From assembly GCA_963751455.1 (NCBI GenBank), contig CAVVUN010000001.1, positions 1-64,000 of the forward strand: 64,000 bases of DNA, written 5' to 3'. Of this stretch, positions 14,031 to 34,211 are shown one piece after another (positions within the stretch are counted from its first letter, which is position 1; the number at the start of each line of letters is the position of its first letter). The position numbers were made by a program, and so were the translations under genes. The notes beneath the pieces are model-generated. The model did not search any database. It worked only from the letters and a program-made list of their open reading frames with translations, and had not been told where the DNA came from. The DNA is from Nitrospirota bacterium (GTDB lineage: Bacteria; Nitrospirota; UBA9217).

Positions 14031-14453
14031 TAGGCGCTTACGCCTATAACATCGACAAAAGATTGTCGATCTATAAAAAGAATTTAATGCAAAAACAGGA
14101 TTATATTGCGCTCGCAAAGGAAGGCCAAATCGCCGGTTTAAAACCAGACTTAAAACTGCTTTACGAACCAACATCTTGAGTTTTTAGTCGAGTCAAAACC
14201 AAAACCCAATTTTCACACAAAGCCACGAAGCCACAAAGAAGAAAACTGAATTTTTTGTCTTTCTCCGTGTCTTAGTGGCTTCGTGTGAGATCGTTTTAAG
14301 GTTTTACTTTTGCTTTATTGGTCTGAGGCGTAACCTCATAAAAGTTTTCTTTGCGTTCTTTGCGGCTTTGCGAGAGACGCCTTTGACTTTTTGTTGTTAT
14401 TTCTGTCCCGAAGGGGCCATGTCTGCCGGGCGAAGTCCCGGCCGACACGTAGA
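14031..14453 (+). repeat. ~423-bp non-coding structured repeat, copy 2
   Basis: Direct repeat of 11218-11657, lacking the 16-bp internal duplication. Confidence 0.9.
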
Positions 14454-14459
14454 TACTTT

Positions 14460-18916: not shown

Positions 18917-20125
18917 TTATTCTATTTCGATATTATCAATGATGACTGTCCCGTCTGTTATTGTTACGGTTCCTTTCAATCTTGTCCGCCGCTCGTTAAT
19001 TGAATAGGTGCAGTCATACCCGCCTTTAAGGTTTACTGAAATAGCCCTGTTGAATTCCACATTGCCCGTAAAGTCGATTGCCAGGGCCTTGATGGTGTCG
19101 CCGTCAAGGGCTGCAGAATATGCCGATGAGGGGGTACTGTACGAAGTGCCCGGAGTCCTGGTGATTGCCGCAGCCGAGCACGAACGAGGTGAGACCGTAA
19201 TGGCATATTGAGCCGCTCCGGTCAATGTCCCTGAATCTGCAGCGCCGACGGAGAACGTGAATCGACCGGTAGTCGTCGGAACGCCGGATAGCTCTCCGGT
19301 GGCGGAGTTAAAGCTGAGTCCCGGAGGCAGGGTCCCTGAGGTGACGGCCCAGGTGTATGGTGGCACTCCGCCGGTTGCTGAAAGAGTCTGGCTGTAAGAG
19401 CTGCCGGCCGAAGCGGAAGGAAAAAAAGAGGGTGTGAAAGTGATGTAAGGCGACACGGACTGGTTGATGGTAAAGGTACTGTCGGCAATGGATATGCTGC
19501 CGCTTCTTTCAGTGCCGCCGTTTGCGGATACGGAAAAATCCACAATGCCGTTCCCTGGTCTGTCGCCGCCGGATGTGATGGCGACCCAGTCCAGATTATT
19601 TACAGTCTGCCAGTCGCAGCCTTGAAAAGATGCATTCACGCTCACGCTTCCTGTGCCGCCCGTAACCCCGAATGACAGACTTTCCGGGGAGATCGAGTAG
19701 GTGCATGGAGTGGTGCGAACACACCGAACACCGTAAGCTAAAGTTTTATATGTGTTCCAGGGACCGCCACGAACATACCATGCCTGGTCCGTGAACTCGA
19801 GATAGGTCGTGGAAGACCAATAAGAACTGCCTGCATTCGTGAAATAAGCGGTGTCCAAGGCAGGATTAAATTTTGTATCATCAGTGATGGACTCCAGCTC
19901 CTTCACATTCGGCAGACGCCAGGTCCCCGCAGGAGACAACTCGTTACAATAGGTGAGAGCCGATTCCCATGCATGCGCGCCTCCCTCAGACTTCTGCCAT
20001 GTGAGGCCGGTCCTGTAGTCGCTCACCGTGTCGTCATCATTGACAATAAGCGGTGCGGATTCTGCAGCCGGTACGATAAATGCCGCAAGAGCCGCAGCAA
20101 TAAATAAGAGCATTCTATTCTTCAT
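18917..20125 (-). CDS. Secreted DUF1566 (Lcl C-terminal) protein with BACON and putative Ig domains
   Basis: TVSDYRTGLTWQ, WRLPNVKELESI, YWSSTT, GVRCVR; SATGGVPPYTW...LPPGLS. Confidence 0.85.
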   Translation of the reverse strand: MKNRMLLFIAAALAAFIVPAAESAPLIVNDDDTVSDYRTGLTWQKSEGGAHAWESALTYCNELSPAGTWRLPNVKELESITDDTKFNPALDTAYFTNAGSSYWSSTTYLEFTDQAWYVRGGPWNTYKTLAYGVRCVRTTPCTYSISPESLSFGVTGGTGSVSVNASFQGCDWQTVNNLDWVAITSGGDRPGNGIVDFSVSANGGTERSGSISIADSTFTINQSVSPYITFTPSFFPSASAGSSYSQTLSATGGVPPYTWAVTSGTLPPGLSFNSATGELSGVPTTTGRFTFSVGAADSGTLTGAAQYAITVSPRSCSAAAITRTPGTSYSTPSSAYSAALDGDTIKALAIDFTGNVEFNRAISVNLKGGYDCTYSINERRTRLKGTVTITDGTVIIDNIEIE

Positions 20126-20204
20126 AACTCCTCCAGGAGCTACATCTTTTCCATTTCACTTCCTGTATCTCTCTGCGATAATATCAAAACTGTCATGAGA
20201 TCGC

Positions 20205-20822
20205 TTACTCACCACCCCGCACACACCGGACATAAGGGAACTTACCATCCATTACCGGTAAATACATAAACTTGCTGCCTGCACCGCCATTATGGAAGAC
20301 CACGTCCCAGGCATGATCAGGCTCGTCTGCGCCGACTGTTGATGACCAATATGCAAACTGACGGCATTCAGGGAAATAGGTCCAATCAATAGTCGGACCG
20401 GGCTTCGGATGCGAATAGTCTACAATGCTTATCAGCTCCTTCTTGGCGGGAAGCCTCCAGTCGGAATATCCTGCAAGGTTGAGCGACCCGCAGACATTCA
20501 CAGAAGTCGGGTTATACGTTTGGTTATACGTCCCCGATGCCTTGTACCAGTTGTATTCGATGCCGTCATCAGTCTGCTGCCACATGAGGCCTGTATTGTT
20601 GTCCGTCACTGTACCGTCCCCATTATCAGTGAAGCTCATCGGGTTGATCAGGTATGCGCCGTCCTGGCCAAGGCCCGTGCCGGAAGCGCAGGAGATCAGG
20701 GTTCCGGCGCCGTCAAAGCAGGTAGTCTGACCAGTGTCTGATAACTTAAAGACGCTCGCATGACCCGTTAACGATAAAAGCGCCACAACTAGTATTGCTC
20801 CAATGAAAATCTTTATGTTCAT
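20205..20822 (-). CDS. Secreted DUF1566 protein
   Basis: DTGQTTCF, DNGDGTVTDNNTGLMWQ, DWRLPAKKEL, YWSST, YVRCVR. Confidence 0.88.
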   Translation of the reverse strand: MNIKIFIGAILVVALLSLTGHASVFKLSDTGQTTCFDGAGTLISCASGTGLGQDGAYLINPMSFTDNGDGTVTDNNTGLMWQQTDDGIEYNWYKASGTYNQTYNPTSVNVCGSLNLAGYSDWRLPAKKELISIVDYSHPKPGPTIDWTYFPECRQFAYWSSTVGADEPDHAWDVVFHNGGAGSKFMYLPVMDGKFPYVRCVRGGE

Positions 20823-21019
20823 ACAATTTTCTCCTCCGATCGATAGATAGCCTCTGTGGTTCAATCATTGGGCGGTCCTTTTTTCAGGACCAGGAGAGCT
20901 GACAGGACGATTGCTGTTAACACCAACCAGGCCCATTTGTAGAGTACTTCGTACTGTGACGTGATCAAGTACTGGATCACGATAACGTTTGCAACTGCTA
21001 TCAGCTTGAGTGCCGTGTA

Positions 21020-21102
21020 TTTCTCCTTTGAAGCAACCTATCGAAACCGAAAGTTCTCAGTTCCATATTTTAAGCGTCATCCGCTTGGCTGCTGGTTGAG
21101 GC
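21020..21102 (-). pseudogene. Relic of an rsgA-cassette 5' end
   Basis: Encodes MELRTFGFDRLLQ (rsgA: MELRTLGFDQWFQ); upstream CCAAGCGGATGACGCTTAA matches the rsgA upstream CCAAGCGGATATGACCGCTTAA. Confidence 0.6.
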
Positions 21103-21244
21103 CTAAGTTATCTATTATGTCGGTTTCGCGAAGCTCGGCCTGATCTTTGCTCGGTTGCCGTTCTCATTTGGTTGATTATTGCAATGCTTACAAACAATCT
21201 CGATCAAGCGGTATCCTCACGTGCTGAATAAGTGACTATTAGAC

Positions 21245-21682
21245 TTATTTTTCAATTTCTACTACAGTGCCAACCAAAGCAACACCTGCATTTAAAGCAC
21301 CTATTCCACATTGAAATGAATCATAACTTGATACTAAGTTGTTTTTATAGTTTGACTTGATGTCTATAACTGCATTGCCACCTTCACGAATAGCCCTATC
21401 TTTTAGAGCTTTCATCGTAGATAAAAATACCCACTGGCAAGCTTCTTTAGCCGTCTTGTTGTACGCGTTAGTCCTTCTATTTGTTCTGAATGTACCGTAA
21501 TTTTTTATTACCTTCCCATGCTGTTGATTGCCGAAATAGAAGCTAATATCGGTGCCCAACTTCGCTTTAATTTTCTCGACGGAAAAAGCATCACCAACAG
21601 AGTAGTTTTCAACAGTATCTTCCGCCAAAGCCAAGGAAGAAAACAGCAAGTTTATGATCAAAACTAATAATATTTTTTTCAT
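21245..21682 (-). CDS. Exported protein of the YbjQ/RcsF-like family often mislabelled 'excinuclease ATPase subunit'; cassette gene
   Basis: Signal peptide, TNRRTNAYNK..EACQWVFLS, GGNAVIDIKSNY, FQCGIG; AT-rich; AGGAGG RBS. Confidence 0.75.
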   Translation of the reverse strand: MKKILLVLIINLLFSSLALAEDTVENYSVGDAFSVEKIKAKLGTDISFYFGNQQHGKVIKNYGTFRTNRRTNAYNKTAKEACQWVFLSTMKALKDRAIREGGNAVIDIKSNYKNNLVSSYDSFQCGIGALNAGVALVGTVVEIEK

Positions 21683-21705
21683 AATATCCTCCTATCAATT
21701 GTATC

Positions 21706-21768
21706 GGCTATAACGCCGCCGTGAAGATCGAGTTTCTCAGCGACTCTCTCCCGGCGAGGTTTGGATCA
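21706..21768 (-). other. Degenerate attC site
   Basis: Minus strand TCCAAAC-CTCGCCGGGAGAGAGTCGCTGAGAAAC...CACGGCG-GCGTTATAGC. Confidence 0.55.
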
Positions 21769-21905
21769 TGGCGTCAGGTTTTGCGTTCTCTACCCGATCT
21801 ACGGCTTGACCCGCGCCCTCGCTACCCGAACCCTGGACTCAGGTCCCCTAGTCCCGGCTGCGTGCTCATGGTCCTGATCGTCTTCTCGTTGCCGCGGGCA
21901 CTGCC

Positions 21906-22496
21906 TTACCAACCTTCGGCATGCATTACGGGATAATCGCCCGTGCACGTTGCGCCGCTGGCAAGCACCGCGTAGGTGAGATCTCGTGAGTTGCAGATGG
22001 TATACTGGTCCTGCGTTGCATAGCTGAAGGCCAGACCATCGATTCCTGTTTTGTATTTCCCCTGGATCGCATGTACGCTTTCGCCGGTCGTTGTAAATCC
22101 GATGCTTTCGTAAAGCTTCGCTGCACGATGATTATTTTTTCTCACGATCAAATATATTCTATCCAGATTAAGCTGCTGGAATCCTGTTTTCAGTGTTGCA
22201 AGAGTGACTTCCCTTCCCAACCCTTTGCCTGTCCAACGCGGATGCATGGCAATACGAAATTCTGCTTTTCCCTCCGCAGTAATGCTGAGTAGGCTAAACC
22301 CTATGACCTGCTTGTTTAAATCAGCGATATAGATCCAAGTTTTGGGCCTGTTTCTGAATTCGTCAAGCCAGCCATGTTCTCTCAGGGCATAATCCATTTG
22401 AGCAAATCCATCAATATAATCTGGCCATTTATTTATTTCAGCAAAATCTTCGGTTCTGGTCAGCCGTAGTTCTACCATGTATTGTCCTCTTGACAT
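21906..22496 (-). CDS. GNAT acetyltransferase (RimL-like) with an apparently unrelated C-terminal tail
   Basis: WTGKGLGRE, IYLIVRKNNHRAAKLYESIGF. Confidence 0.75.
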   Translation of the reverse strand: MSRGQYMVELRLTRTEDFAEINKWPDYIDGFAQMDYALREHGWLDEFRNRPKTWIYIADLNKQVIGFSLLSITAEGKAEFRIAMHPRWTGKGLGREVTLATLKTGFQQLNLDRIYLIVRKNNHRAAKLYESIGFTTTGESVHAIQGKYKTGIDGLAFSYATQDQYTICNSRDLTYAVLASGATCTGDYPVMHAEGW

Positions 22497-22567
22497 ACGA
22501 CTCGCGAATCTAAATCAGATTTGTTCTGCTTCAGCATCGAATGGCCGGGCGGTACCCGCTGGTTGAA

Positions 22568-23638
22568 CTACTGATCCCCTTTTTTGAGATGTTTCATTGT
22601 AGTCTTGATGAATTGTCCGAATTTTTTATCCTTTCTGCGCTTTTCAATGTAGGATAGCTCATTATATTCAGATTCTTTCATCAGCTTCAAATAGCTCTGA
22701 TATCGATCCGCTTGCAATGTGCCATTTTCAATTGCGTTTAGCAGTGCACAACCGACTTCCTGAGTATGAGTGCAATTGGAAAAACGGCAGGTTTTTGAAA
22801 GGCTCCAAATATCAGCAAAGCTTTCCTCAAGCCCGGAGTTGACGCCGATATTCCCCAGTTCTCTCATTCCAGGGGTGTCGATCAGCATTGCCCCTTGATC
22901 AAGGACGATCAGTTGGCGCTGCGCCGTCGTGTGCTTGCCCTTCCCGTCGCTTGCACGGACTGTGTTTGTCTCAAATAAATCGCGGCCTATGATATGGTTC
23001 AGGAGCGTCGTTTTGCCTACTCCGGAAGACCCAACCAGGCAGTAAGTTTTGCCCGGCTCCAATAATTGTCTCACTTGATCCACTCCGAACCCGGTTACGT
23101 TGCTGAGCGGAAGGACTTTGCATCTGATGTTGGCTTGACGCACCTCTGATATTCGTTCCTCCAGCTTCTCCGGGCTGACCAGATCGCTTTTTGTCAAGAG
23201 GAGTATTGGTTCAATATGCCCTTCGTTTACCATCACGAGATAGCGCTCGAGCCTGCGCAGATTGAAATCGAAATCACAAGCTTGCACGATCAAGGCGGAA
23301 TTTATGTTGACCGCGATCATCTGGTAGTCGATTTTTTTACCAGGAGTTTTTCTTCGTAAAAAAGATTTCCGCGGGAGAAGGCCGTGAATAATGGCAAATG
23401 CATCAGCGTTGTGGTACTGGACAAGTGCCCAATCACCAACTGAAGGAAGGTCTATGCTTGATTCAACTGAGTAAACGAAACTACCTGCCAGTTCAGCGAG
23501 CACCTCGCTGTTTTCATTTCTTACGAGGTAGCTGTCCCTGTGGACAGCGGACACGCGAGCCACATTACAGTCGGGTCTCCGCGCGTCGCTCTTTTTTTCT
23601 TGAAACCACTGATCAAATCCAAGAGTTCTAAGTTCCAT
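22568..23638 (-). CDS. rsgA: Ribosome small subunit-dependent GTPase A family protein, within the cassette array
   Basis: TKSD, GSSGVGKTT, GKHTT, DTPGMRE, CRFSNCTHTQEVGC zinc motif. Confidence 0.93.
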   Translation of the reverse strand: MELRTLGFDQWFQEKKSDARRPDCNVARVSAVHRDSYLVRNENSEVLAELAGSFVYSVESSIDLPSVGDWALVQYHNADAFAIIHGLLPRKSFLRRKTPGKKIDYQMIAVNINSALIVQACDFDFNLRRLERYLVMVNEGHIEPILLLTKSDLVSPEKLEERISEVRQANIRCKVLPLSNVTGFGVDQVRQLLEPGKTYCLVGSSGVGKTTLLNHIIGRDLFETNTVRASDGKGKHTTAQRQLIVLDQGAMLIDTPGMRELGNIGVNSGLEESFADIWSLSKTCRFSNCTHTQEVGCALLNAIENGTLQADRYQSYLKLMKESEYNELSYIEKRRKDKKFGQFIKTTMKHLKKGDQ

Positions 23639-23702
23639 AATAAGTTAAGCGGTCATATCCGCTTGGACAGTTGGTTGGCGTAGAACGGTATTTTGTCCGG
23701 AG

Positions 23703-23843
23703 CCAATCCCGGGGCTGAGCCGCCACCCGAAGGGGGTGTCGGTCTCTAGCCCCTGGTTCTCCCGGCGCGACTTTCGATTGCGCCGGGGTTAGGGACTCCG
23801 GCTCAGCCCCGGGATTCTTACGGCGCGAAGCGCCGGGAGAAAC
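23703..23843 (-). other. ORF-less gene cassette with its own attC and an internal anti-attC, copy A
   Basis: Near-identical to 31155-31294; attC arms GGGGCT.GAG/CTCAGCCCC. Confidence 0.75.
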
Positions 23844-23878
23844 GTGCGCGTGAGGGGCGCGGTTCTCAGCGACCCTCT

Positions 23879-26007
23879 TCCGGGTAGGAGCAGCGGTTGC
23901 CCGCCGCTCCCCCCACAGACCCGGACGTGCCCAATTAAGGCATCCGGTTCGTCAGTCGCTACGGGCCTTAGCCCGTGTCGAACCAAACAGGCGTCCCCGT
24001 TTGGCGCATAACTTTTGCTGTCCTTGGCTCGGTCAGATGTTGTGGATGATCCTGGGTTTCGGAAGCGGATACACTTTCCGAAAGACTTTGTCAAACTTCT
24101 CGACGTTCACATAGCCTATTGCTGCGCCTGCTAAGCCACTATCGCCAGGCACGCTCCGTATGCTCGAAAACGACTTCGAGCATTTTGTAGTTGCCCCGGA
24201 TGCCGTAGTACTGGTAGTAGCCGCGCAGCTTGGAGCGGAGCGTATCGTGTTGCTCCTTTACGGGGTCGTGCAGGTTTTCCCGGCACCACTCCCATATGGC
24301 TTTCATGAATCTTCGGAGTCGTTTGCCGATCGTTTTCCGCTTAATGATCCAGTATCCATTAAGTGATTTGGCCCAGAAATGGGTGAATCCGAGAAAGTCG
24401 AATGTCCCATTTTCCTTTTCCGTCTTCTCTTTCGGGGATGGCTGGATAAACCGAACCAGCTTCGTCTTTTCGGGATGAATGGTCAGGTTGTAACGGCTGA
24501 ACCGTTTCGGCAGGACTTCCAGCACCCGGCGGGCGTCGGCTTCTTGCTCGAAACCGATGATAAAATCATCGGCAAACCGAATCAGGAAGCTCTTTCCCTT
24601 GAGGCGTGGCTGTACGTCCTGTACGAACCATTCATCCAGCACGTAGTGCAGGAATATATTGGCAAGCATCGGCGATGCTACTCCGCCTTGCGGCGTGCCT
24701 TTGTCGGGGTAGATCATGTTCCCGCCGTCGAGCACTCCGGCATTGAGCCATTTGCCGATGAGCCTTAATATTCCTCCATCTTTCACTTTCTTCTCGATGA
24801 AGCTTCTGAGAAGACCGTGATTGATGGTATCGAAAAATCCGCTTACATCCGCATCCACTATCCAGTTGATGTTCAGCTTGATGCACTGCTCTCGTAGTTC
24901 CCGTATCGCCTGATGCTGACTGTGACCTTTTCTGAAGCCGTGGGAGAACGGATGGAATATCGGCTCGAAGATGTCCCCAGGATCATGACCACCGCTCGTT
25001 GGACGATCTTGTCCTCGTAGCAGGGTTTGCCGATGGGTCTCTGCTTTCCGCCTTCCTTCTCGATCCATACCCGTTCGACGGGTGGAGCCACGTAACGGTT
25101 TGATTTCAGCCGTTCGTGCAGGTCGTGGAGGTTTTCGTACAAGGCTTCGGCGTAGTGCTTTGCCGTTACCTTGTCTACTCCCGGAGCGCTGTCTTTGCTC
25201 GTCCGTTGGTAGGCTTCCAATAGAAGGTCATCGTCAATCAGATGATACAGGTTGTTGAACACCATCTCCGGATAGTTCCGTGCCTGTTCCGCAATCTTCT
25301 GGAGTTTCGGTGATATGATTGGCGATCCCGGAGTATCTCTCATAGTTCCTTCCAGAAGACGTTATGCCCGGCCTCTCCTTCCCTTGAGCGGGTCCCTTGG
25401 ACCTCGGTTCCCCGCCTTCCCGGTCCCGGATATTTTCGGGGCCATCGGTACTATGATCGGCTAAGATTGCCTGACGCCCGTCTCGCAGCACTTCGCTTGT
25501 CGCTGGCGCTGCGATACCATGCTTGCTCTCTGGTTTCGCTCGTCGGCAATAGAGAGCGCATTGCCGACGCCGTGGACTTTGTTCCGCCGGTGTCCTTCCG
25601 GCTATTCAGCATGGAAACATCCGGCTCTCTCAAGTTCCCGAGTTATCCCCTTGTGTGCGTGCCCCGATCTAAGACCCCGGTGGTGTCCTTTCGGCTCGCC
25701 ATAGCGCCTTCAAGGACTGTTGCCTTCCGCTGCGTCGAGTACGTCGGCTTTGGCTCCGATGTTTTGGAGGTTATCCTACTGACCACAACTATACATATTT
25801 CGGGATTCAATAACACGGCCTGCATACTTGCTCCGCCCGGCTTCATACCTTCCCTTACGGGAACGCACGCGGGCTTCGCTACCGACCTGCCGGCTAAGCT
25901 TTAGTCGGATGGGACTTGAGTCGCTTCGACTCGCACCCACTGGATAACAATGACAGATTTCGTAGGATCGCTCCTATTCCCGCTGCCTCGGGTTTATCTT
26001 GGCGCTA
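23879..26007 (-). mobile_element. Group II intron inserted in an attC site
   Basis: Domain V GAACCGGATGCCTTAATTGGGCACGTCCGGGTC and domain VI ending CCTACCCGGA; 5' end TAGCG; removal rebuilds a complete attC. Confidence 0.88.
24033..25343 (-). CDS. Group II intron reverse transcriptase/maturase without endonuclease domain; frameshifts (~24975, ~24115) and in-frame TAG at 24139
   Basis: APGVD, RPIGKP..EDKIVQRA, GTPQGG.ASP, RFADD, FDFLGFTH, C-terminal PLPKPRIIHNI. Confidence 0.9.
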
Positions 26008-26330
26008 CGACGCGAATGTTGGGATCTCTTTCTGGTCTTTCGGTTACTTGCAAGATCAAGCAAGGCATTAGGATGTTTCTCCGCGACTTGCAGTAATACA
26101 CGTGCAGGCCCTTCGGGCTTACGGCGTCCTTGTTCCCAGTTACGTAGCGTTGCGGTGCTGATTCCCATAAGGATAGCAAACTTGTCCTGTGAAAGACCGT
26201 ATTGCTCGCGTATCTTCCGCACTTCGGATTCGGGAAAGGTAAAAGTGCGGGAAGGTTTGAGGGTGCCCTTCATGATCGCACCGCCTTGCTTCACACTTTC
26301 GACTAATTCATCAAAAAGTTCTTTTTTCAT
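25974..26330 (-). CDS. higA: HigA-type HTH antitoxin (NadS-like)
   Basis: LSQDKFAILMGISTATLRNWEQGRRKPEGPARVLL; overlaps the toxin stop. Confidence 0.88.
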   Translation of the reverse strand: MKKELFDELVESVKQGGAIMKGTLKPSRTFTFPESEVRKIREQYGLSQDKFAILMGISTATLRNWEQGRRKPEGPARVLLQVAEKHPNALLDLASNRKTRKRSQHSRRSAKINPRQRE

Positions 26331-26639
26331 CGTAATTCTCCTTCAACAATCTTCTTTAATTGCTTTAATTGATCCGGTGTTAAGTCAGCCTGTTCATTCT
26401 TTGGAAATGCGAACAACATCATGATAACTTCATTGGATACGAACCAATAATAGATTACCCTGGCCCCGCCCCGTTTCCCGCGCCCACTGGCTGACCATCG
26501 CAGTTTACGAAGACCGCCGCTTCCGGGAATAATTTTTCCAGAATCTGGTCTCTGCACCAATTGGGATGAACCGATACTCCTCATCGGAAAGAATATCTTG
26601 TATGCGACGGGTGAATATGGGAGTCTCTATTATGACCAT
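26327..26639 (-). CDS. higB: HigB/RelE-family toxin (frameshift ~26570)
   Basis: MVIIETPIFTRRIQDILSDEEYR then IPGSGGLRKLRW..GKRGGARVIYY..PKNEQADLT. Confidence 0.85.
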
Positions 26640-26646
26640 GCCTGAT

Positions 26647-26665
26647 TATACGTCAATGGCGTATA
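26647..26665. promoter_or_regulatory. Palindromic TA operator overlapping a -10 box
   Basis: TATACGTCAATGGCGTATA inverted repeat; TATAAT on the minus strand just upstream of higB. Confidence 0.65.
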
Positions 26666-26696
26666 GAAGGCAAGAGGATTGTTGGAGAATTTACGA

Positions 26697-26754
26697 CTCG
26701 AAACAGAGCGAGGGCGCGGCTCTTTACTGCCGCGCCCCTCATGACAGATTATTT
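26697..26754 (-). other. Degenerate attC-like hairpin
   Basis: Minus strand AAATAAT..GAGGGGCGCGGC-AGTAAAGA-GCCGCGCCCTC..GTTTCGA. Confidence 0.45.
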
Positions 26755-26950
26755 ATTGTGCAACTCTTTCTGCTTTTTGACCGTTGCAGGCCTTTACGTC
26801 AAGGTTTTCATAAACACGGAAGAATAAAAAGTTGTCTTTACAGGTTGCCGTTCCTTTTACTGTCACTGTCACGGGTTCTTTTTGCGGCGCAACGCGTGCA
26901 AAAACGTCCCTCTATCGCCCCCTTCCGGGGCAGGTCTTCAATAAAACAGG

Positions 26951-28162
26951 TCACACAATCGTCATCCCGTCCGATCCGGTAGTCAGGTTCTCTCCTCCTT
27001 CATCGGTGACAAGAAAGGTGTTTTCCACACCCACCAACCCGATGCCTTCCAATCCCTTCTTAGGCTCCACTGCAATAACCATGTTGGCCTCAAGGGGGGT
27101 ATGTACCTTGCCTGCAATGGCCGGGAATTCGTCAATAGCTAATCCGATACCGTGGCCAAGGAAGGGCACCTGGTTGCCGCCGAAACCCATGAAGTGCTTT
27201 CCAAAACCACGGGGATAAACGAATTCGTTGTAGACCTCCTCGTATATCTGAGACGGGATGGCGCCAGGCTTGAGGCGGCGCCGGACGGCCTCCTGTATGT
27301 CCAGGCATACCTTGTGAGCATCGAGCGCTCGAGCGGGCGGAGCGCCAAGGGAGAAGACCCTCGTTTTATCGGTGAAATATCCCTCATACCCGAACCCGGT
27401 ATCCACGAATATCGGTTCGCCCCTTCCAAGTTTCTTCTTTCCCCCAACCAGGGGGAAGGCTGGAGAAAGCCCTACCAGGCCTCCCGGCCCTACCGAAGCG
27501 GTGGGATAGTTTCCTGATTCGCCAAAACTGACGATCCCCATAAACAACTCCCCGCCAAACGCTGCAAGCCGTGTAATCCCGGTGTATCCCAGCGCCATCA
27601 TCCCCTTGTGAATATCAGCCCCGAGCTCCCATTCCGTCATCCCTTCGCGAATCATGGAAGGGATGGCGTCATAGACCATCTCGTGCCGTGCCCCGGCTCT
27701 TCGGATGAGCCCCACTTCGTAGTCGGACTTCTTCGCCCGAATCATGCCCAATAGGGCGCTGATATCCGTGAACGTCCCTCCTGGAAACGCCTTGGCCAAC
27801 GTTTTAAAAACGGAAACGGACAGGGTTGTTTCAGCCACCCCCAGGATGTTGGTTTGCAGGCCCAGATCTGCAAGGGTTGCCTGAAGCTGGCTGAATCCTG
27901 TTAAGGGGAAAACTCTTTTCAATGGTGTTTCCCGCTGTGCCCGCTCGTAACTTCGCCGGACCAGGAAGACCGGTTCTCCCTCCGTTGGGACAAAGAAAAC
28001 CCCCTGTTGCATCGTCCCCGTGTAGTAATACATGTTCAATGGATCGAGAATCAGTGCACCATCCATCGGCCCTTCTTGTAACCGGTACTGAAGCCTTGAA
28101 ACACGTTGGGCAATCTCCCGGGCAGGAACAAGATTGTATTGAAATCGGTCATCTGAACTCAT
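26951..28162 (-). CDS. Xaa-Pro peptidase (M24) family protein
   Basis: DTGFGYEGYFTDKTR, GHGIGLAIDEFP, VIAVEPK, GVENTF. Confidence 0.9.
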   Translation of the reverse strand: MSSDDRFQYNLVPAREIAQRVSRLQYRLQEGPMDGALILDPLNMYYYTGTMQQGVFFVPTEGEPVFLVRRSYERAQRETPLKRVFPLTGFSQLQATLADLGLQTNILGVAETTLSVSVFKTLAKAFPGGTFTDISALLGMIRAKKSDYEVGLIRRAGARHEMVYDAIPSMIREGMTEWELGADIHKGMMALGYTGITRLAAFGGELFMGIVSFGESGNYPTASVGPGGLVGLSPAFPLVGGKKKLGRGEPIFVDTGFGYEGYFTDKTRVFSLGAPPARALDAHKVCLDIQEAVRRRLKPGAIPSQIYEEVYNEFVYPRGFGKHFMGFGGNQVPFLGHGIGLAIDEFPAIAGKVHTPLEANMVIAVEPKKGLEGIGLVGVENTFLVTDEGGENLTTGSDGMTIV

Positions 28163-28335
28163 GGTGAACACTCCTGAGGGGATAATTGTGATACCGGGAA
28201 GCGCCTGCCCGGTTCTTCGCTGCAAGGTTTCGAGTGCCCGTTGCAACAAGAGTAATATTTCCAATGATCATCGACGGTAACGCATTGACTCCCAAAAAAA
28301 TAACTCGTTGAGTTTCGATTTAGCTCGATGCTGTT

Positions 28336-28469
28336 CCAATGGGGCGGATGAGCCGCAGCCCCTCAGGGGCGACGGTTTCGATCCGCTTTGATATGCCGCG
28401 CTTGTTTCGCGGCATATCAGGATCACGGCGCATCCGCCCCAATATGACGCCGCGAAGCGGCGGCATATC
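28336..28469 (-). other. ORF-less cassette with anti-attC architecture, divergent copy C
   Basis: Same order of hairpins as copies A and B with a different sequence. Confidence 0.7.
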
Positions 28470-28515
28470 GACCAAAATGAGCCGCGATTCGTCGGCTCGA
28501 TTTTGATGGTTGGAA
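28463..28515 (-). other. attC site with non-canonical R' (GATATGC)
   Basis: TTCCAAC-CATC-AAAATCGAGCCG..CGGCTCATTTT-GGTC-GATATGC with the extrahelical C. Confidence 0.75.
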
Positions 28516-28542
28516 CATTTTATACTTTGCGGTTTTATGACA

Positions 28543-29049
28543 CTATGAAAGTAAATTATGTTCAATCAAATAACCACGACCATCATGGTCTAACTCCCAG
28601 ACACGGATACTACCGATATCTGCGGATACGATCATGCAGTTATCTTCTAATTCCTCCAGATGATATTGTGCTTGCTGTTCAGACAGACCACAGGCAGACA
28701 TAATTGATTCTAATGGGTACATTTGAGTGCCTTTAAGCGTGGCGAGAGTTTGAAGAATTTTAATTTGTGGATCAGGGAGGATAGATAATTGAGACGTTTT
28801 TTGGTTGGATTGTATTTTCTGTTTCAGTTCTGCATTCTCTTTTGTAAGTTGAGCAATCGTCGTTTGAGAATCTTTAAGTTGGTCCTTGAGGGTCGTTATC
28901 TCAGATTCAAGCTTCGTAATGCTCTTATCCGCAAGCGCAAGTTGATCGCGGAACAGCGCAATATGCTTCTCTTGTACAACAGCAGAGCCATGCTCGATAA
29001 CTAAACGCTCTAATTCTGCTGAAATTAGTTTTATTGGATTGAGTTCCAT
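28543..29049 (-). CDS. Cassette hypothetical protein (coiled coil plus possible winged helix)
   Basis: 168 aa, AAGGAG RBS, lies between two attC sites. Confidence 0.7.
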   Translation of the reverse strand: MELNPIKLISAELERLVIEHGSAVVQEKHIALFRDQLALADKSITKLESEITTLKDQLKDSQTTIAQLTKENAELKQKIQSNQKTSQLSILPDPQIKILQTLATLKGTQMYPLESIMSACGLSEQQAQYHLEELEDNCMIVSADIGSIRVWELDHDGRGYLIEHNLLS

Positions 29050-29128
29050 TGATTCTCCTTTGTTTTTGCCTTTACGGGCATTGAGCCTCTTTGTAGGCTC
29101 GAACTGCTGGTGGCATCGAATTTATCAT

Positions 29129-29189
29129 AGCCAACCGCGCGGGTGAGACGCGCGTCTCCTGCGCGGCGGACTCGACCCGCAAGTTATTT
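29129..29189 (-). other. attC site
   Basis: AAATAAC-TT-GCGGGTCGAG...CTCACCCGC-GCG-GTTGGCT. Confidence 0.88.
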
Positions 29190-29198
29190 CATCTTTGT

Positions 29199-30023
29199 TT
29201 ATCCCGCAATCAGCACAGAATAGAATTTGTCCTTTGCGGCCCTTGAAAGCCCGACGCCCTCTTTTGAAAGATAAATGTCATACATGGTGAATTTGGAAAG
29301 CAAATCGTTAAACTGGGTCGTTTCGTTATTGGCTTTATATTCCTTTAATTCCTTTAATATAGAATCAATATTTTCCTCAATGTAATTTCGTGCTTGAATA
29401 AGCTCTTGTGTTAATGTCTTTGTAGAGAAGTGTTTTAGGAATAAATCAAAAAGGTCAGTGCGCAGCTTTAGTATCTTCTCATGATGGTCCTTTTTAATGG
29501 CTGCAAATTGATTGCCTCCAGCATGCGCTTTAATATTGCCAGAATTGTCAATCTCAATACTGCCCCACATCATAATATGGCTCGCTGTATATGGCGCTAG
29601 AGAGGGATGTTCGTATTCGTTTCTGATTTCATTATCAAATTCTGAGAAAAGATTCTCTGTTCTTTTTTTCCACAGCTTAAAGTCTACTGAAAATGCCTTT
29701 GGGACACCTGAAGCCTCCCGGTAGAGACGATTAATTAGCTCTAAAATTCGTTCGTATATTTTTTGGAGCTTATCCCATGTCAAAATATAGTAATAAATAT
29801 CCAATCCTGCATTCCGGATATCGCTAGCTGACGACTCTTCAACGTTTTTCGATGCTGAAACTCTTAAATCGGATTTAATGCGGTTATACTGCAGAAAGAC
29901 CCCATAGACATGGCTTTCGAATACACTCAGGTAATGCCATAGCTCAATATTGAGCAATTGATCTTTTGTTACTTCAATCAAGTGGAGCCTGGTGGAGAAG
30001 AAGTCAAATCTTTTTTCTGTCAC
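29199..30023 (-). CDS. Cassette hypothetical protein
   Basis: 274-aa AT-rich ORF; cassette begins GTTATTT and ends with the complementary AAATAAC. Confidence 0.75.
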   Translation of the reverse strand: MTEKRFDFFSTRLHLIEVTKDQLLNIELWHYLSVFESHVYGVFLQYNRIKSDLRVSASKNVEESSASDIRNAGLDIYYYILTWDKLQKIYERILELINRLYREASGVPKAFSVDFKLWKKRTENLFSEFDNEIRNEYEHPSLAPYTASHIMMWGSIEIDNSGNIKAHAGGNQFAAIKKDHHEKILKLRTDLFDLFLKHFSTKTLTQELIQARNYIEENIDSILKELKEYKANNETTQFNDLLSKFTMYDIYLSKEGVGLSRAAKDKFYSVLIAG

Positions 30024-30036
30024 AGTGATTTATCCT

Positions 30037-30096
30037 AAATAACACGCGCGTAACGCGCCGCACTTTGGCGCGTCGCTGTTGACGCGCTGGTTGGAT
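30037..30096 (-). other. attC site
   Basis: ATCCAAC-CAG-CGCGTCAAC...GTTACGCG-CGT-GTTATTT. Confidence 0.9.
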
Positions 30097-30153
30097 CATC
30101 TTGTTGGTGCCATACCTGCGCCTAAGCTCCGAGAAATGATTCTTTCGAGAATT

Positions 30154-30450
30154 CTAAGGTTCTCTTATTGCAGCTCGAATTGTTTCTACAGATGGCACAT
30201 TGGTGAGCCTGCCAGACTCATCGCTGAACATTCTTCAGGAAAACCCCACCTTACCCTGTGGCTGAAGTTCCTTCCCGTTAATGAATACTGAGGGCGATCC
30301 TGTCAGCTCCAGAGACGTAGCCTTGTCGTCATCAATCCGATGAAAATTTACATCCGCTTGGGCCTTTTCAATTACCAATGCACGAGTAATGTTTTTTCGC
30401 AAATCTGCTTCCGAACCGCAGCCGGGCGACAAATAACAGTCAATTTTCAT
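30154..30450 (-). CDS. Thioredoxin-fold selenoprotein (DUF2703/alkylmercury lyase-like), Sec at UGA 30235-30237, 98 aa
   Basis: YLSPGC, GSPSVFING, then GFS-U-RMF..G.LTNVPSVETIRAAI in frame; SECIS-like hairpin 30204-30220. Confidence 0.8.
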
Positions 30451-30515
30451 GACTTACTCTCCTATAATGGGCCGGTTGATTGGCTTCTGTGAAAAGCGTC
30501 AGGTAGTTCGCCTTG

Positions 30516-31136
30516 TTAGGCGCGGTTATTTTCATGGAATTTTGGTATCTCATACGCTTCGAGCTGCCACCTGTCATCGTAACGCATATGATCCGGAATC
30601 TTCGGGATAGCAGTATCAGCAATCTTTGATACTTGCACGAGGCATCTATGTAGATGGGCGCGCAGCATCTCCAACGCTGCAAAGTATTTCTCTCGCGCTG
30701 GCCGTGGCCGCCTGAAATCTTTTTGAACATCAACCAATGCGGGCTCTGAAGGTGCAAATTCATTTAGTCTTTGTTCAAAAGTGAGGAATTGGCGGATGGC
30801 CTCTACCTGCAACTCGATCAGTATATATAAGGGGCTATCTGAGACGCCGGAAAGCTCGACCTGCTTGTCAACGAGGATGCGACGTATCTCTTGGAGCGAG
30901 GAAAGAGCCTGATCGATGCAATTGTCGCAGCATTCAAAAGAGTTCAGTACGCGTCTGTCTGACATTCGGATTACGATTTCTCTGGCGACCCGTTTCTCAA
31001 GATCGTCTGGATTCAATGAAAAAGACAAGAACGGCAGATTGACAGAAACCGAACCCACCCGTGAATTTAATTTACGACGGGCGTTCTTAAGCTGCTCTCT
31101 AAAGTCGAACTTAAATGGCGGTTTCAGATCTCGCAT
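30516..31136 (-). CDS. Cassette hypothetical protein (DUF6650-like)
   Basis: 206 aa, DRRVL..C..SLQEIR pattern; stop codon lies inside the GCCTAAC R'' box. Confidence 0.65.
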   Translation of the reverse strand: MRDLKPPFKFDFREQLKNARRKLNSRVGSVSVNLPFLSFSLNPDDLEKRVAREIVIRMSDRRVLNSFECCDNCIDQALSSLQEIRRILVDKQVELSGVSDSPLYILIELQVEAIRQFLTFEQRLNEFAPSEPALVDVQKDFRRPRPAREKYFAALEMLRAHLHRCLVQVSKIADTAIPKIPDHMRYDDRWQLEAYEIPKFHENNRA

Positions 31137-31154
31137 CCTTAGCTCTATTCAAGA

Positions 31155-31294
31155 CCAATCCCGGGGCTGAGCCGCCACCCGAAGGGGGTGTCGGTCTCGA
31201 GCCCCTGGTTCTCCCGGCGCGACTTTCGATTGCGCCGGGGTTAGGGGCTCCGGCTCAGCCCCGGGATTCTTACGGCGCGAAGCGCCGGGAGAAC
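31155..31294 (-). other. ORF-less cassette with its own attC (31153-31214) and an internal anti-attC, copy B
   Basis: GTTCTCCCGGCGC/GCGCCGGGAGAAC ends; AATCCCGGGGCTGAGCCG complementary to CGGCTCAGCCCCGGGATT. Confidence 0.8.
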
Positions 31295-31339
31295 GCGAAG
31301 ATGAGCCCCGTTACGTGGGGCTCGATCTTCTGGTTGGAT
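31288..31339 (-). other. attC site of the first gene cassette
   Basis: ATCCAAC-CA-GAAGATCGAGCCCC..GGGGCTCATCTTC-GC-GTTCTCC. Confidence 0.9.
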
Positions 31340-31731
31340 CATTTGTTTTTCTTTGATGGAGTAGTCGATGATAAAATATTTGAAGAAGATGGAAAACTCA
31401 CCGTATTTTTGGTGGTCTGTTGGCTATTTTGCATTGGCTGTTGGACTTGCGGTGCATCATGTCCTTCTGATGGTTTACCTTGATAAATGGAAAGAAGAAT
31501 CTGCACGATCATTAGAACTATCCCGACAACTGCGCCAATGCCAGCAAGTCTACTCCAAAATAAATTTCTTGAAAACTGAGCATTAGTTTTGGCTTCTTCA
31601 AGTTTTTCGCGTTTATCTATTTCTGAAATGATGATCTGATATTCTACTGCATTAACAGTATAGCGAGTAAGGTAATGTTTTAGCGTAGACTTAGACATTT
31701 TACGAAATTCATCTTCGGTAGGCATATCCAT
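31339..31731 (-). CDS. Cassette hypothetical membrane protein
   Basis: 130 aa, one TM helix, stop abuts the attC R'' box. Confidence 0.7.
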   Translation of the reverse strand: MDMPTEDEFRKMSKSTLKHYLTRYTVNAVEYQIIISEIDKREKLEEAKTNAQFSRNLFWSRLAGIGAVVGIVLMIVQILLSIYQGKPSEGHDAPQVQQPMQNSQQTTKNTVSFPSSSNILSSTTPSKKNK

Positions 31732-31795
31732 TTGTCCTTTTTGGCTTTGTGGCCCGCTCAGTCGCTTGTCGATCTGGTGCGTGTGGTTGGAAAAA

Positions 31796-31853
31796 GTCCA
31801 ACAATATATTATAGGGACGGACTACAGTATCATAGAAAATACGAATCAGTCAA
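31796..31853 (-). promoter_or_regulatory. Candidate attI core and cassette promoter Pc
   Basis: GTTGGAC core at 31796-31802 nearly matches the complement of the first-cassette R''; TTGACT-18-TACTGT points into the array; divergent from intI. Confidence 0.45.
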
Positions 31854-31988
31854 CATGAATTGATAAAAAACTTGACTCAACCTGCGGAAATCATTACAAT
31901 TGCAGAAAATTAGAATATTACATTTCGGACAATTTTTATTTTATCGAAATAATATTCAAATCAGACAATTCACGGCAAGGCGGTCCCC

Positions 31989-32236
31989 ATGCTTCCCATC
32001 CCGGACGATCGACATAGTGAAGCCCTTCAACGCGCTCATGGAGGAAAAGTCGGTCCCGCCGCTCTTCGTCGCACACCTTCCGCCACAGCTTCGCGACTCA
32101 TTTGCTCCAGGCGAATTACGACATCCGAACGATCCAGACTCTTTTAGGTCACTCTGATATTCGAACGACCATGATCTACACCCACTGCATTCCGAGCAAG
32201 GCGGCGAAAGAAGTGAAAAGTCCGCTGGATTTTTAA
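31989..32236 (+). pseudogene. intI: Integron integrase remnant with a large internal deletion
   Basis: [38 protein letters not shown]...VKSPLDF* joined to ~30 putative N-terminal codons (MLPIPD..). Confidence 0.88.
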
Positions 32237-32240
32237 ATTA

Positions 32241-32510
32241 ATGAATAGCCCTGTTGAACAACCTATTGACGGCGTTCTTGATCTGCATACGTTCCAACCT
32301 GGGGACGTAAAAGACCTCGTGCCTGATTATCTGACTGCCTGCCGTGAACGTGGAATCCTTCAGGTACGTATCATTCACGGAAAAGGCACAGGCGCTCTTC
32401 GGCGGACAGTAGAGTCGGTCCTTAAGAAACTGCCGTATGTGGAATCGTATCGGATTGCCGGGGAAGGCGCAGGTGAATGGGGAGCGATGATTGTTCAGTT
32501 GAAAGGGTAG
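32241..32510 (+). CDS. Smr/MutS2 C-terminal domain protein
   Basis: [27 protein letters not shown]. Confidence 0.9.
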
Positions 32511-32553
32511 ATTGCCATTTACCTTCATCTAATTTTTTCTTTTCTCAATGCTT

Positions 32554-32687
32554 TGATTAACTCGTAAAAAGTCGTCATTCCCGCTTGTCGGGAATCGTAT
32601 CGCCACGCAACACACTGAAAAAGAAGGATTCCGGACAAGCCGGAATGACGGTCTTTCGGTGATTTTCGACTTTTTACGAGACCATCA
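32554..32687. mobile_element. MITE of the same end family as 5517-5649
   Basis: TGATTAACTCGTAAAAAGTC ... GACTTTTTACGAGACCATCA, flanked by ATGCTT repeats. Confidence 0.65.
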
Positions 32688-32922
32688 ATGCTTGACAGCC
32701 CACGAAAAATCCGGTCATCAGCGGACTTATCCGCTTTACTCTTTTAATTTTTATCCCGGCCTCAGACCATCCGATCCTTACGCCTCTTTTTCTGTTATTT
32801 AATGTAATTTATTGAAGTTTAAGTACTTATATTATTGTTATAAACATATAATACTTGACTTTCTCTTTTTTTTATAATACATTTGTACTACATTAGTATA
32901 AAAATACTGACTGGAGGTCCAA

Positions 32923-33546
32923 ATGTCTATTAATCCTAATAAGGTCGCGATCGATCCGTACCTGAAAGCCTACCTCAATAAATATATCGACGAGAGGATA
33001 GTCAACGCATCCCGCCAGATCTATGATGCCTTGAATAAAAAGATCACGAACCTGGACGCCAAGGTCCGTGACGTCGAAGTCAAGGTCCAAAAAAACAGGG
33101 TCGCCATTATCGCATCCAAAGGTACGCTTGATATGGCTTATCCTCCGCTCCTGCTTGCCACCGGCGCGCGCAGCATGGGGATCGATGCATCGGTCTTCTT
33201 TACGCTTTACGGGGTCAATATTTTAAAGAAAAACGCGAGACTGAAGGTTGCTCCGATAGCAAATCCCGCAATGCCTGTTCCGATGCCGAACATCATCGGT
33301 GCGCTTCCGGGAATGACCGAACTAGCCTCGCTGATGATGAAGGGCATGTTCAAGAAGCGGTCCGTGCCGACAATCAAGGAGCTGCTCGACATGGCCCGCG
33401 AGACAAAAGTGCAGATGGTGGCCTGCCAGATGACGCTGGATGTCATGGGTATCAAAAAGAAAGATCTTATAGACGGGATAGAATTCGGAGGTCTTGCGAC
33501 CTTCCTCGAATACGGTATGGGTTCGACGGTTACGCTGTTCGTCTAG
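32923..33546 (+). CDS. DsrE/DsrF/DrsH-like (DsrE2) sulfur-relay family protein
   Basis: IIASKGTLDMAYPPLLLA, FFTLYG, VACQMTLDVMG. Confidence 0.88.
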   Translation: MSINPNKVAIDPYLKAYLNKYIDERIVNASRQIYDALNKKITNLDAKVRDVEVKVQKNRVAIIASKGTLDMAYPPLLLATGARSMGIDASVFFTLYGVNILKKNARLKVAPIANPAMPVPMPNIIGALPGMTELASLMMKGMFKKRSVPTIKELLDMARETKVQMVACQMTLDVMGIKKKDLIDGIEFGGLATFLEYGMGSTVTLFV

Positions 33547-33548
33547 CG

Positions 33549-33748
33549 TAGTGTCTCACAAACGACTGGTGTTATCATAGCGCAGCAGTAGGCCGTAGCC
33601 AAACTTGTAGGGCAAGGCTTTAGCCTTGCTGAAAGCGCCGGAACAGCAGCAACCCTAAAGGGTCGCCCTACAAATTCATCAGCAAATATTTATGCGAAGA
33701 TAAGTTTTCGATGAAATCATCATAACACCGTCCATTTAAGAGACACTA
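33549..33748. mobile_element. MITE enclosing a GTAG REP pair (33607-33671)
   Basis: TAGTGTCTC..GGTGTTAT / ATAACACC..GAGACACTA ends; GTAGGGCAAGGCTTTAGCCTTGC ... GCAACCCTAAAGGGTCGCCCTAC. Confidence 0.65.
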
Positions 33749-33782
33749 CACTAGCATTATTGCCGAATCAGGAGGAAAGACA

Positions 33783-34211
33783 ATGGAACAAGGTATTCCT
33801 GTAAGGACGACAAAGGGACGTGATGCTCTTAAAAATAATCCAGCGGACCTGCCGCTCCTGTGCCGGAACATTCTGATACAGATCGACGGAAAAAATTCAT
33901 TGGATGACATTAAAGCAACGTTCCGGGGACTCAAAGGCCTCGATGAAGCCATCGAAAAACTCTTTGCCGGACGTTATATACACGCAGGCACCGATTGCCA
34001 TGAACTGGTTAAAGCGCTTGCCCGCAAGCTGTTAGGCACCAACTCACCGACGTTGATAAAGAAGATCGATGAGCTTCATGCCAAATACGGAGAACAGTGC
34101 TGGTCTCATCTTGACGAGATTGATAAGCATGCTAGGCTGTTCTACGGACAAGTCATCGCTGACCAGTTGAAAGCGGAAATCTCCAAGATTCTGGAGAAAA
34201 CCAGGAAATAG
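33783..34211 (+). CDS. Hypothetical protein
   Basis: 142 aa, AGGAGG RBS, RNILIQIDGK winged-helix-like start. Confidence 0.65.
   Translation: MEQGIPVRTTKGRDALKNNPADLPLLCRNILIQIDGKNSLDDIKATFRGLKGLDEAIEKLFAGRYIHAGTDCHELVKALARKLLGTNSPTLIKKIDELHAKYGEQCWSHLDEIDKHARLFYGQVIADQLKAEISKILEKTRK

What the first reader, a model, noticed from the sequence alone, without database searches (positions are those of the whole stretch)
23703..31294. Family of ORF-less integron cassettes whose body is an inverted copy of their own attC
Seen: three ~130-135 bp geneless units (23703-23843, 28336-28469, 31155-31294), each directly after another cassette's attC. A and B are near-identical; C differs in sequence but keeps the same layout on the minus strand. 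Layout: core site, then a CTTCG-loop hairpin, then 18 nt complementary to the unit's own attC right arm (AATCCCGGGGCTGAGCCG in B, ATTGGGGCGGATGCGCCG in C). Next comes a segment complementary to the left arm (GAGCCCCT; GATCC..TGATAT), a GC hairpin, and an attC ending ATTGG. The 5' end can alternatively pair with the R'' region (GTTCTCCCGGCGC/GCGCCGGGAGAAC), so mutually exclusive folds exist. Known: IntI recombines attC only as a folded single strand. Inference: conserved pairing despite sequence change suggests a selected structural device, such as an attC lock or switch controlling excision, an inverted recombination site, or a structured ncRNA/attenuator for downstream cassettes.
Basis: partly seen in the sequence, partly recalled or inferred. 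Interest (0 to 1): 0.85.

Follow-up and report, generated by a model that had tools for sequence, protein, structure and literature searches.

The report
Geneless integron cassettes hiding own attC
These 130-base DNA units carry no gene, consist of an integron recombination site plus a reversed copy of that same site, and occur in up to about twenty copies per genome among integron cassettes; they are likely selfish passengers of the integron enzyme, and the reversed copy is predicted to fold over the site so that the unit would be hard to cut out again.

Summary
Confirmed, and larger than reported: the genome holds 11 copies, and 104 distinct units were found in Nitrospirota and a second phylum, up to 21 per genome. 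Each is a 119-139 nt geneless integron cassette bounded by the two crossover points. Its whole body is the reverse complement of its own attC core (median 94% identity) minus the apex, as expected if an empty cassette once inserted backwards into itself. Both folds covary. The Y fold (body paired to the attC arms) is predicted to be about 17 kcal/mol more stable, and attC folding probability falls from 4e-3 to 2e-12. Mismatch patterns favour bottom-strand DNA, not RNA. Near-identical copies have different neighbours, some directly behind attI, so this is no permanent lock. Best reading (0.5): a selfish cassette that enters by its attC fold and then collapses into the Y fold, a ratchet against re-excision. 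Boldest open reading: the Y fold plus the upstream attC form a ready-made Holliday junction. Nothing was tested experimentally. The scan noted this family before on other DNA (e1-363862, e1-9935100); I found no paper describing it in ten searches.

The parts
31159..31293 (-). Geneless cassette, 31.2-kb copy, 135 nt, from the base after the upstream G to its own A of A|TT
31267..31293 (-). 5' hairpin P0: start arm S (holds the upstream R' core), TTC loop, complement S'1
31251..31266 (-). X': reverse complement of the attC right arm, including the base opposite the unit's own R base
31243..31250 (-). W': reverse complement of the attC left arm, starting opposite the extrahelical C
31208..31239 (-). 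Second hairpin: second copy of the start arm, loop, and S'2 ending in R''
31157..31214 (-). Own attC of the 31.2-kb copy: R'' 31208-31214, extrahelical C at 31199, short apical hairpin, L', R' = A|TT
31292..31339 (-). Ordinary attC of the upstream gene cassette; crossover G|TT at 31294/31293
28340..28468 (-). Geneless cassette, 28.4-kb copy, 129 nt; G|AT start, ATC in R'', own end A|TT; attC 28338-28396
28467..28515 (-). Ordinary attC upstream of the 28.4-kb copy
23707..23842 (-). Geneless cassette, 23.7-kb copy; two substitutions against the 31.2-kb copy (one changes the extrahelical C to A) and one extra T at the start; attC 23705-23762
23841..23878 (-). 3' half of the attC upstream of the 23.7-kb copy (5' half at about 26009-26024, beyond the intron)
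23879..26008 (-). Group II intron inside that attC, same orientation as the cassettes, RT in two frames; boundaries approximate
31802..31820 (-). attI-like AT-rich site at the head of the array (inferred from likeness to sequences in front of first-position units elsewhere)
32048..32185 (+). C-terminal remnant of an integron integrase

Best explanation
The units are geneless integron cassettes whose body is a reversed copy of their own attC core; they likely spread as selfish passengers of the integrase, likely entering arrays through the ordinary attC fold and then collapsing into a more stable predicted Y fold that would hide the attC and make re-excision rare. Shown from sequence: boundaries at both crossovers, changing neighbours, first position behind attI, covariation of both folds. 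Inferred origin: an attC-only cassette took in its own bottom strand at the top-strand R'' AW|C, and the copy then lost its apex. Inferred cycle: the short attC can still form locally (cruciform from duplex DNA, or first on an emerging bottom strand) and be captured by IntI. Once the strand is single over its whole length, as in the junction left after insertion, body and arms pair. The A at the unit's own crossover base (31 of 49) is matched by the body but not by G|TT partners, so the Y-fold junction would lack the first-base match that IntI1 needs to religate; a GAT start (16 of 47) leaves the integrated R box mismatched. Both would favour insertion over loss.
For: Body equals the reverse complement of the own core at median 94% identity, at least 80% in 47 of 47, with one gap of about 24 nt. 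Anti-arm to right arm: 0.95 self against 0.60 non-self; at 34 of 37 mismatches in the attC stem both anti-arms still match their own partner. Y-fold pairs: 29 of 40 changed on both sides, 0 of 500 shuffles as high; attC-fold pairs 15 of 24, 0 of 500. The first base of X' tracks the own R base (T:A 29, C:G 17, T:G 1) while R'' ends in C in 47 of 47, which fits attC-fold use against G|TT targets; upstream sites have G in 45 of 49. Folding probability of the attC: median 4e-3 alone, 1.7e-12 with the body; Y fold lower in 47 of 47 bottom-strand circles, median 17.5 kcal/mol; direct-path barrier out of the attC fold median 11 kcal/mol. IntI1 data: ATT against GTT 3e-3 of wild type, GAT tolerated, a non-complementary triplet 6e-6 against 2.2e-3 (PMC2811028); low folding probability cuts excision (PMC5371416); attC can extrude from duplex DNA and IntI captures it (PMC8946536). 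Multiplication: 7 copies with 0-1 differences over 100 nt and different flanks in G049, while 4 of 76 ordinary attC flanks in G000 had a second copy and only one pair is a plain duplicated cassette; 21 copies in G273.
Against: No experiment, no circle and no RNA was seen. Copies cannot multiply without being excised, and equilibrium folding says the canonical two-hairpin substrate is almost absent (median 1e-15); the escape through cruciform or kinetic folding is assumed. In 20 of 47 units the tested L-box pair was already out of the lowest-energy fold 5 nt beyond R'', so the kinetic window may be short. Seven of 47 units have neither the A nor the GAT change. The upstream attC is hardly affected in GTT-type units (1.8e-2 to 1.3e-2). 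No enrichment at any array position was found. Template switching in hairpins could keep the arms matched without selection. The IntI1 rules may not hold for these integrases. The covariation shuffles ignore relatedness.
Confidence: 0.5

Rival explanations
1. The Y fold is the working form. With the upstream attC it makes a four-way junction whose branch point lies at the two scissile bonds, so IntI would only have to resolve it; the released circle offers a perfect duplex R-L site without extrahelical bases. The unit would be hypermobile rather than sticky.
For: Predicted probability of this junction: median 2.5e-3 in 28 contexts (0.27 and 0.64 for two window copies), against 1e-15 for two attC hairpins and 1e-11 for the junction with the attC arm. 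Sites without extrahelical bases recombine efficiently, and reversal is said to be favoured on perfect hairpins (PMC5027507). High copy numbers. GAT-start, G-end units have full first-base match in this junction (11 of 47).
Against: 29 of 47 units have A at the crossover base, which gives a C.A mismatch with G|TT partners in this fold, a roughly 300-fold penalty for IntI1. The attC fold is itself conserved (L-box covariation, C on top at the extrahelical position in 41 of 49, invariant R'' C), which this model does not need. A paired central spacer hampers attI insertion. No first-position enrichment.
Confidence: 0.22
2. The reversed copy is only a spacer left by an inverted self-insertion. 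It makes the cassette long enough to be excised, and hairpin template switching keeps it matched to the arms without any function of the Y fold.
For: Origin by self-insertion fits well. Changes are nearly all two-sided, as copying gives (helix 3). Both hairpin tips are flipped in L107 against L133, and L111 shows a fold-back extension.
Against: The pairing is costly: 25 of 132 contexts are truncated, internally deleted or cut by a contig end, many by deletion between the internal repeats. Escape mutants would be more stable and more recombinogenic, yet I saw no pattern-anchored hit with an intact attC and an unmatched body (judged by eye). Some subfamilies show the attC pair changing first and X' following later (read).
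Confidence: 0.15
3. The unit is a host-serving clamp: its hidden attC welds it to the next cassette and slows loss from small arrays, or it shields downstream expression.
For: Very low predicted attC folding; wide presence in one family, 33 of 64 genomes.
Against: Copy number runs from 0 to 21; neighbours change freely; many copies are decaying; little effect on the upstream attC in GTT types; no link to a particular downstream gene was noticed (not tested systematically).
Confidence: 0.08
4. The unit works as a structured RNA (regulator, terminator or processing signal) made from the array transcript.
For: The top strand also folds strongly as RNA; a small RNA on a Xanthomonas cassette is known (bioRxiv 10.1101/2025.06.18.660453).
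Against: X':X has 542 of 564 Watson-Crick pairs with 6 G.U-type against 4 A.C-type mismatches; the attC stem has 25 A.C against 2 G.T and P0 6 against 0, the bottom-strand DNA pattern. No Rfam family; no promoter- or terminator-like site within the units.
Confidence: 0.05

Closest known systems
Integron gene cassettes with attC sites (PMC5027507, PMC5371416), including arrays without an intact integrase
   Same: R'', L'', L', R' boxes, an extrahelical base, bottom-strand G.T bias, boundaries at the crossover points, first position behind attI and intI in some genomes.
   Different: No gene; the whole body is a reversed copy of the site; the attC fold is predicted to be 7-32 kcal/mol above another fold of the same strand; A rather than G at the own crossover base in most copies.
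ORF-less or gene-less cassettes of Vibrio, Treponema and Xanthomonas (bioRxiv 10.1101/2023.11.21.568050; PMC8876359; PMC1382264)
   Same: No ORF, classical attC, often many paralogues; Boucher et al. already raised 'selfish elements' as one of two options.
   Different: The Vibrio ones tested are 491-666 bp and often carry promoters; these are 119-139 nt, have no promoter-like site, and are self-complementary to their attC, which the passages I read do not mention.
Top-strand (wrong-orientation) attC recombination products (PMC5027507)
   Same: The body begins and ends at the points expected if a bottom strand was joined at a top-strand R'' AAC.
   Different: [quoted passage not shown]
Low-folding attC sites such as some Vibrio VCRs (PMC5371416)
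   Same: A non-recombinogenic fold outcompetes the attC and lowers excision.
   Different: There the misfold lies inside a long site (down to 1e-7); here a dedicated, covarying segment outside the site does it (about 1e-12).

Membership tests
Integron cassette | attC with pairing L'' and L' boxes and an extrahelical base | tested here: met
   L-box covariation; C on top at the extrahelical position in 41 of 49, G in 6, A in 2
Integron cassette | R'' complementary to the cassette's own start (R box of the circular form) | tested here: met
   First two bases match in 44 of 47; 6-nt match 0.94 self against 0.76 non-self
Integron cassette | Moves as a unit between crossover points, in one orientation with the array | tested here: met
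   Near-identical copies with different flanks that break at G|WT and R|TT
Integron cassette | Found at attI next to an intI gene | tested here: met
   L047/L138 and L063 lie 150-190 nt from a divergent intI start; G273:C19 unit beside an over-cut-off intI
Integron cassette | Canonical GTT crossover triplet | tested here: inconclusive
   Own end is ATT in 31 of 49 and the start is GAT in 16 of 47; GAT is tolerated by IntI1, ATT poorly
Integron cassette | IntI-dependent excision and insertion shown directly | not testable with these tools
   Needs a recombination assay; no circular joint of a unit in the contigs of 4 runs, which cannot show absence
Promoter-bearing ORF-less cassette | Several hundred bases with a sigma-70-type promoter | tested here: not met
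   119-139 nt; none of 12 promoter-like sites in 23500-32300 lies in a unit
Known structured ncRNA | Match to an Rfam family | tested here: not met
   Window 20000-34000 gave only intron models and one weak chance match
Known structured ncRNA | Discrete transcript | not testable with these tools
   No RNA holder listed
MITE or insertion sequence | Terminal inverted repeats and target duplication | tested here: not met
   Ends are the two crossover triplets; no duplication seen in the flanks printed (by eye)

The most novel reading that the evidence does not exclude
These units are self-synapsing DNA parasites: one strand folds, with the neighbouring attC, into a ready-made Holliday junction whose branch point sits on the integrase's two cleavage sites, so the enzyme cuts them out without bringing two hairpins together, releasing a fully base-paired 130-nt circle that can switch between two rod folds. 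They would also be natural fossils of wrong-strand integron recombination.
Probability: 0.22. Interest if true: 0.88.

Novelty: new variant of a known kind. Interest (0 to 1): 0.72.

Why it matters
Integron cassettes are seen as gene cargo. A family made only of the recombination site and its mirror image, making up roughly one cassette in eight in this genome (11 units beside 76 ordinary attC-like hits), points to selfish dynamics inside arrays and gives a natural test of the 2006 suggestion that non-coding cassettes may be selfish. It offers natural substrates for open questions on how attC folding sets the balance of insertion and excision and on whether top-strand recombination leaves products in nature. 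If the reversed copy tunes excision, it is also a simple switch for synthetic integrons.

Tried and rejected
Position test: 27 of 129 classifiable contexts had AT-rich, hairpin-free upstream DNA (3 more were too short; the rule mislabels a few attI-like sites as attC-like, seen by eye). The rough baseline in G000 is 28 clusters for 76 ordinary attC-like hits. No enrichment at first position. Cassette-precursor idea (a gene inserted into the body): in 19 truncated cases examined no unit-type attC was found behind the gene, but that scanner was insensitive (one search placed only 6 sites in clusters), so this is weakly tested; L004 read directly shows none. Lock on the upstream attC: small for GTT types, larger for GAT types. 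The circle part failed numerically and was redone by minimum-energy folding. The structure string had two misplaced pairs; one search replaces it. Sequencing runs: no RNA holder listed; contigs of 4 of 24 listed runs, all small shares, showed no unit-circle joint; neither is evidence. No match in plasmids, viral contigs or 121 genomes of the class of G105. More than half of the 99 metagenome pattern hits, and the coding-gene hits among relatives, were unrelated hairpins and were set aside. The GCGAAGC tips first looked special, but the attC of aadA7 has the same tip (oligonucleotides), so they only say 'attC-like'. The repeated sequence after the 23.7-kb copy first looked like an attI remnant; it is more likely another short cassette.
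Full report
Observation. The three units lie where stated, on the minus strand of a cassette array that runs from an attI-like site near 31802 and an integrase remnant at 32048-32185 towards lower coordinates. The copies at 23.7 and 31.2 kb are 99% identical; the 28.4-kb copy differs. Each starts right after the G of an upstream attC crossover and ends at its own purine before TT; what follows belongs to the next cassette. All 5 strands folded gave z-scores of -6.4 to -9.5.

The family. In G000, BLAST and a profile found further copies; a covariance model gives 11 matches, and there are about four partial ones. A pattern on the 5' hairpin alone gave 9 loci in genome contigs (titles: Nitrospirota or Nitrospiraceae, Desulfuromonadales, Ignavibacteriales, Accumulibacter), matches in 26 of 101 related genomes (many in an unrelated coding gene) and 99 metagenome loci. 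Parsing gave 57 full-length hits in 51 contexts. I dropped one false parse and two internally deleted units and added back the 28.4-kb copy, leaving 49 contexts and 47 distinct cassettes of 119-139 nt. A model built from 31 of them matched 33 of 64 genomes in the host family, 22 of 151 in a phylum sample, 3 of 4 in the order and 11 of 151 in the phylum of G104, and 0 of 121 in the class of G105. Of 66 model hits printed, 7 lacked the 5' end; the rest added 57 distinct units, 104 in all. Hits are not in that count. The host is probably a Nitrospirota bacterium (inferred from relatives).

They are cassettes, and they move. The 3' half is an attC: L-box pairs covary, the extrahelical base is C on top in 41 of 49, and stem mismatches are A.C on top 25 times against G.T twice, the bottom-strand pattern. 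R'' matches the unit's own start. Units are the first cassette beside intI in L047/L138, L063 and G273:C19. G049 has 7 copies with 0-1 differences over their last 100 nt and different flanks; G273 has 21 (one more hit is the opposite strand of a listed unit), four of them spaced about 1.5 kb apart in one array; G164 shows attI, unit, about 1 kb, unit, twice. In G000 4 of 76 ordinary attC flanks had a second copy: one cassette pair, one intron and one internal repeat. First position is not enriched.

Anatomy and origin. On the top strand: start arm S, loop, S'1, X', W', second start arm, loop, S'2 ending in R'', W, apex, X, R. Removing everything between the two S' copies leaves an attC-only core. 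The removed body is the reverse complement of that core: median 94% identity over 48 of 50 nt, at least 80% in 47 of 47, one gap of median 24 nt; matched share 0.87 for the own core and 0.73 for another unit's. It begins after an AW|Y and ends at R'' AW|C, the point where top-strand recombination cuts (PMC5027507, passages). In 10 of 47 the second hairpin tip is the exact complement of the first. I infer one inverted self-insertion followed by loss of the apex. Natural attC-only forms exist (L117, L090, L010); L117 matches a full unit's core at 81 of 82 nt, so at least some are later deletions.

Two folds, both kept. The Y fold pairs S with S'1, X' with X, and W' with W. On alignment A3, which is not structure-fitted and is out of register in some rows, 29 of 40 pairs change on both sides, and 15 of 24 for the attC fold; no shuffle of 500 reached either count (shuffles ignore kinship). 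Without an alignment, X' matches its own X at 0.95 and others at 0.60, W' at 0.88 and 0.64, and at 34 of 37 stem mismatches each anti-arm follows its own partner. The base opposite the crossover purine covaries with it in 46 of 47, whereas R'' keeps C in 47 of 47. With DNA parameters the Y fold is lowest in 47 of 47 bottom-strand circles, by a median 17.5 kcal/mol. With constraints modelled on those of PMC5371416 (passages), attC folding falls from a median 4e-3 without the body to 1.7e-12 with it. That paper saw no excision when both flanking sites had values of 3e-3 and 8e-6.

Mechanism. The data pose a paradox: a site predicted to be hidden, on an element that multiplies. The conserved attC fold and invariant R'' C say that IntI still uses the ordinary fold with G|TT partners, for which first-base match is required (PMC2811028, parts 2 and 3 of 5 read). 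In duplex DNA the body is held by its own complement, so a short attC can extrude as a cruciform, and IntI captures attC sites as they form (PMC8946536, passages); the direct-path barrier out of the attC fold is a median 11 kcal/mol, range 1-28. After strand exchange the whole unit is single-stranded and would fall into the Y fold, removing the substrate for reversal. The A at the own crossover base (31 of 49, against non-G in 4 of 49 upstream sites) and the GAT start (16 of 47) each add a mismatch that hampers exit by IntI1 rules; 40 of 47 units have at least one. I therefore favour a selfish cassette with a ratchet (0.5). These steps are inferred, not shown.

The main rival turns this round. 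With the upstream attC, the Y fold forms a four-way junction branching at the two scissile bonds; its predicted probability is a median 2.5e-3 in the 28 contexts with a clear upstream attC, twelve orders above two attC hairpins. If IntI resolves it, the unit is hypermobile (0.22). The A-type mismatch in 29 of 47 units argues against. A functionless spacer kept matched by template switching (recalled mechanism, no call) remains possible (0.15). Host clamp (0.08) and RNA function (0.05) have little support.

What is known. Ten searches of the paper library listed no paper on such units; 'anti-attC' occurred in neither paper listed. I read passages of bioRxiv 10.1101/2023.11.21.568050, PMC8876359, PMC1382264, bioRxiv 10.1101/2025.06.18.660453 and PMC7923331: known geneless cassettes are larger, often carry promoters or a small RNA, and were once suggested to be selfish. 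Subscription papers and all supplements were not seen; cassette lists in supplements of integron surveys could contain these units unremarked. Earlier notes of this scan report what appears to be the same family (e1-363862, sharing 4 of 38 words; e1-9935100, same layout and a similar reading); they are not independent support. Verdict: a real, apparently undescribed variant of integron cassettes; interest 0.72.

Noticed in passing
window 23879-26008 (-): [quoted passage not shown] RT lies in two frames. A 95% copy of its 3' part is near C1:502344, and an intron-end-like piece sits in an attC half at about 21720-21800.
   Followed up: partly
window about 31735-31801 (-); also G000:C15:273850, behind C1:395004, L035, L183: A second short geneless element: a TTGGA...TCCAAC hairpin followed at once by an attC-like stem whose R' is lost, in first position behind attI-like sites and fused to the next gene.
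   Followed up: partly
window about 23640-23706 (-); also C1:551936, C15:1068773, C12:98977: A third short repeated element right behind an attC: about 30 nt ending in an R''-like GCCAAC, then a degenerate attC-like stem; seen behind attC sites of several arrays.
   Followed up: partly
L107 against L133: Two nearly identical units in which both hairpin loops are flipped to their complements, as in flip-flop ends of hairpin replicons (comparison recalled).
   Followed up: partly
L079:701, L139:328, L147:328: The same 48-nt remnant (5' hairpin, part of X', then GTT) with three different flanks; either a deletion hot spot or a still-mobile fragment without an L box.
   Followed up: no
G000:C1:550113-550371 (-): Two different units in direct tandem.
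   Followed up: no
G000:C1:553948-555288, C2:446933-448360, C3:356527-357542, C12:96275-96514: The integron-type integrase frames examined in this genome all appear truncated, split or interrupted, though about 28 attC clusters remain.
   Followed up: partly
G000:C3:328683, C15:273790, C15:1070451: A conserved 60-nt platform sequence with an internal hairpin precedes the first cassette in three arrays; likely attI.
   Followed up: partly
window 25974-26584 (-): RelE-like toxin and helix-turn-helix antitoxin pair inside the array, behind an M24 peptidase gene with no attC found between them.
   Followed up: no
window 11218-11662 and 14031-14458: A roughly 440-nt direct repeat (96-99%) flanking about 2.4 kb.
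   Followed up: no
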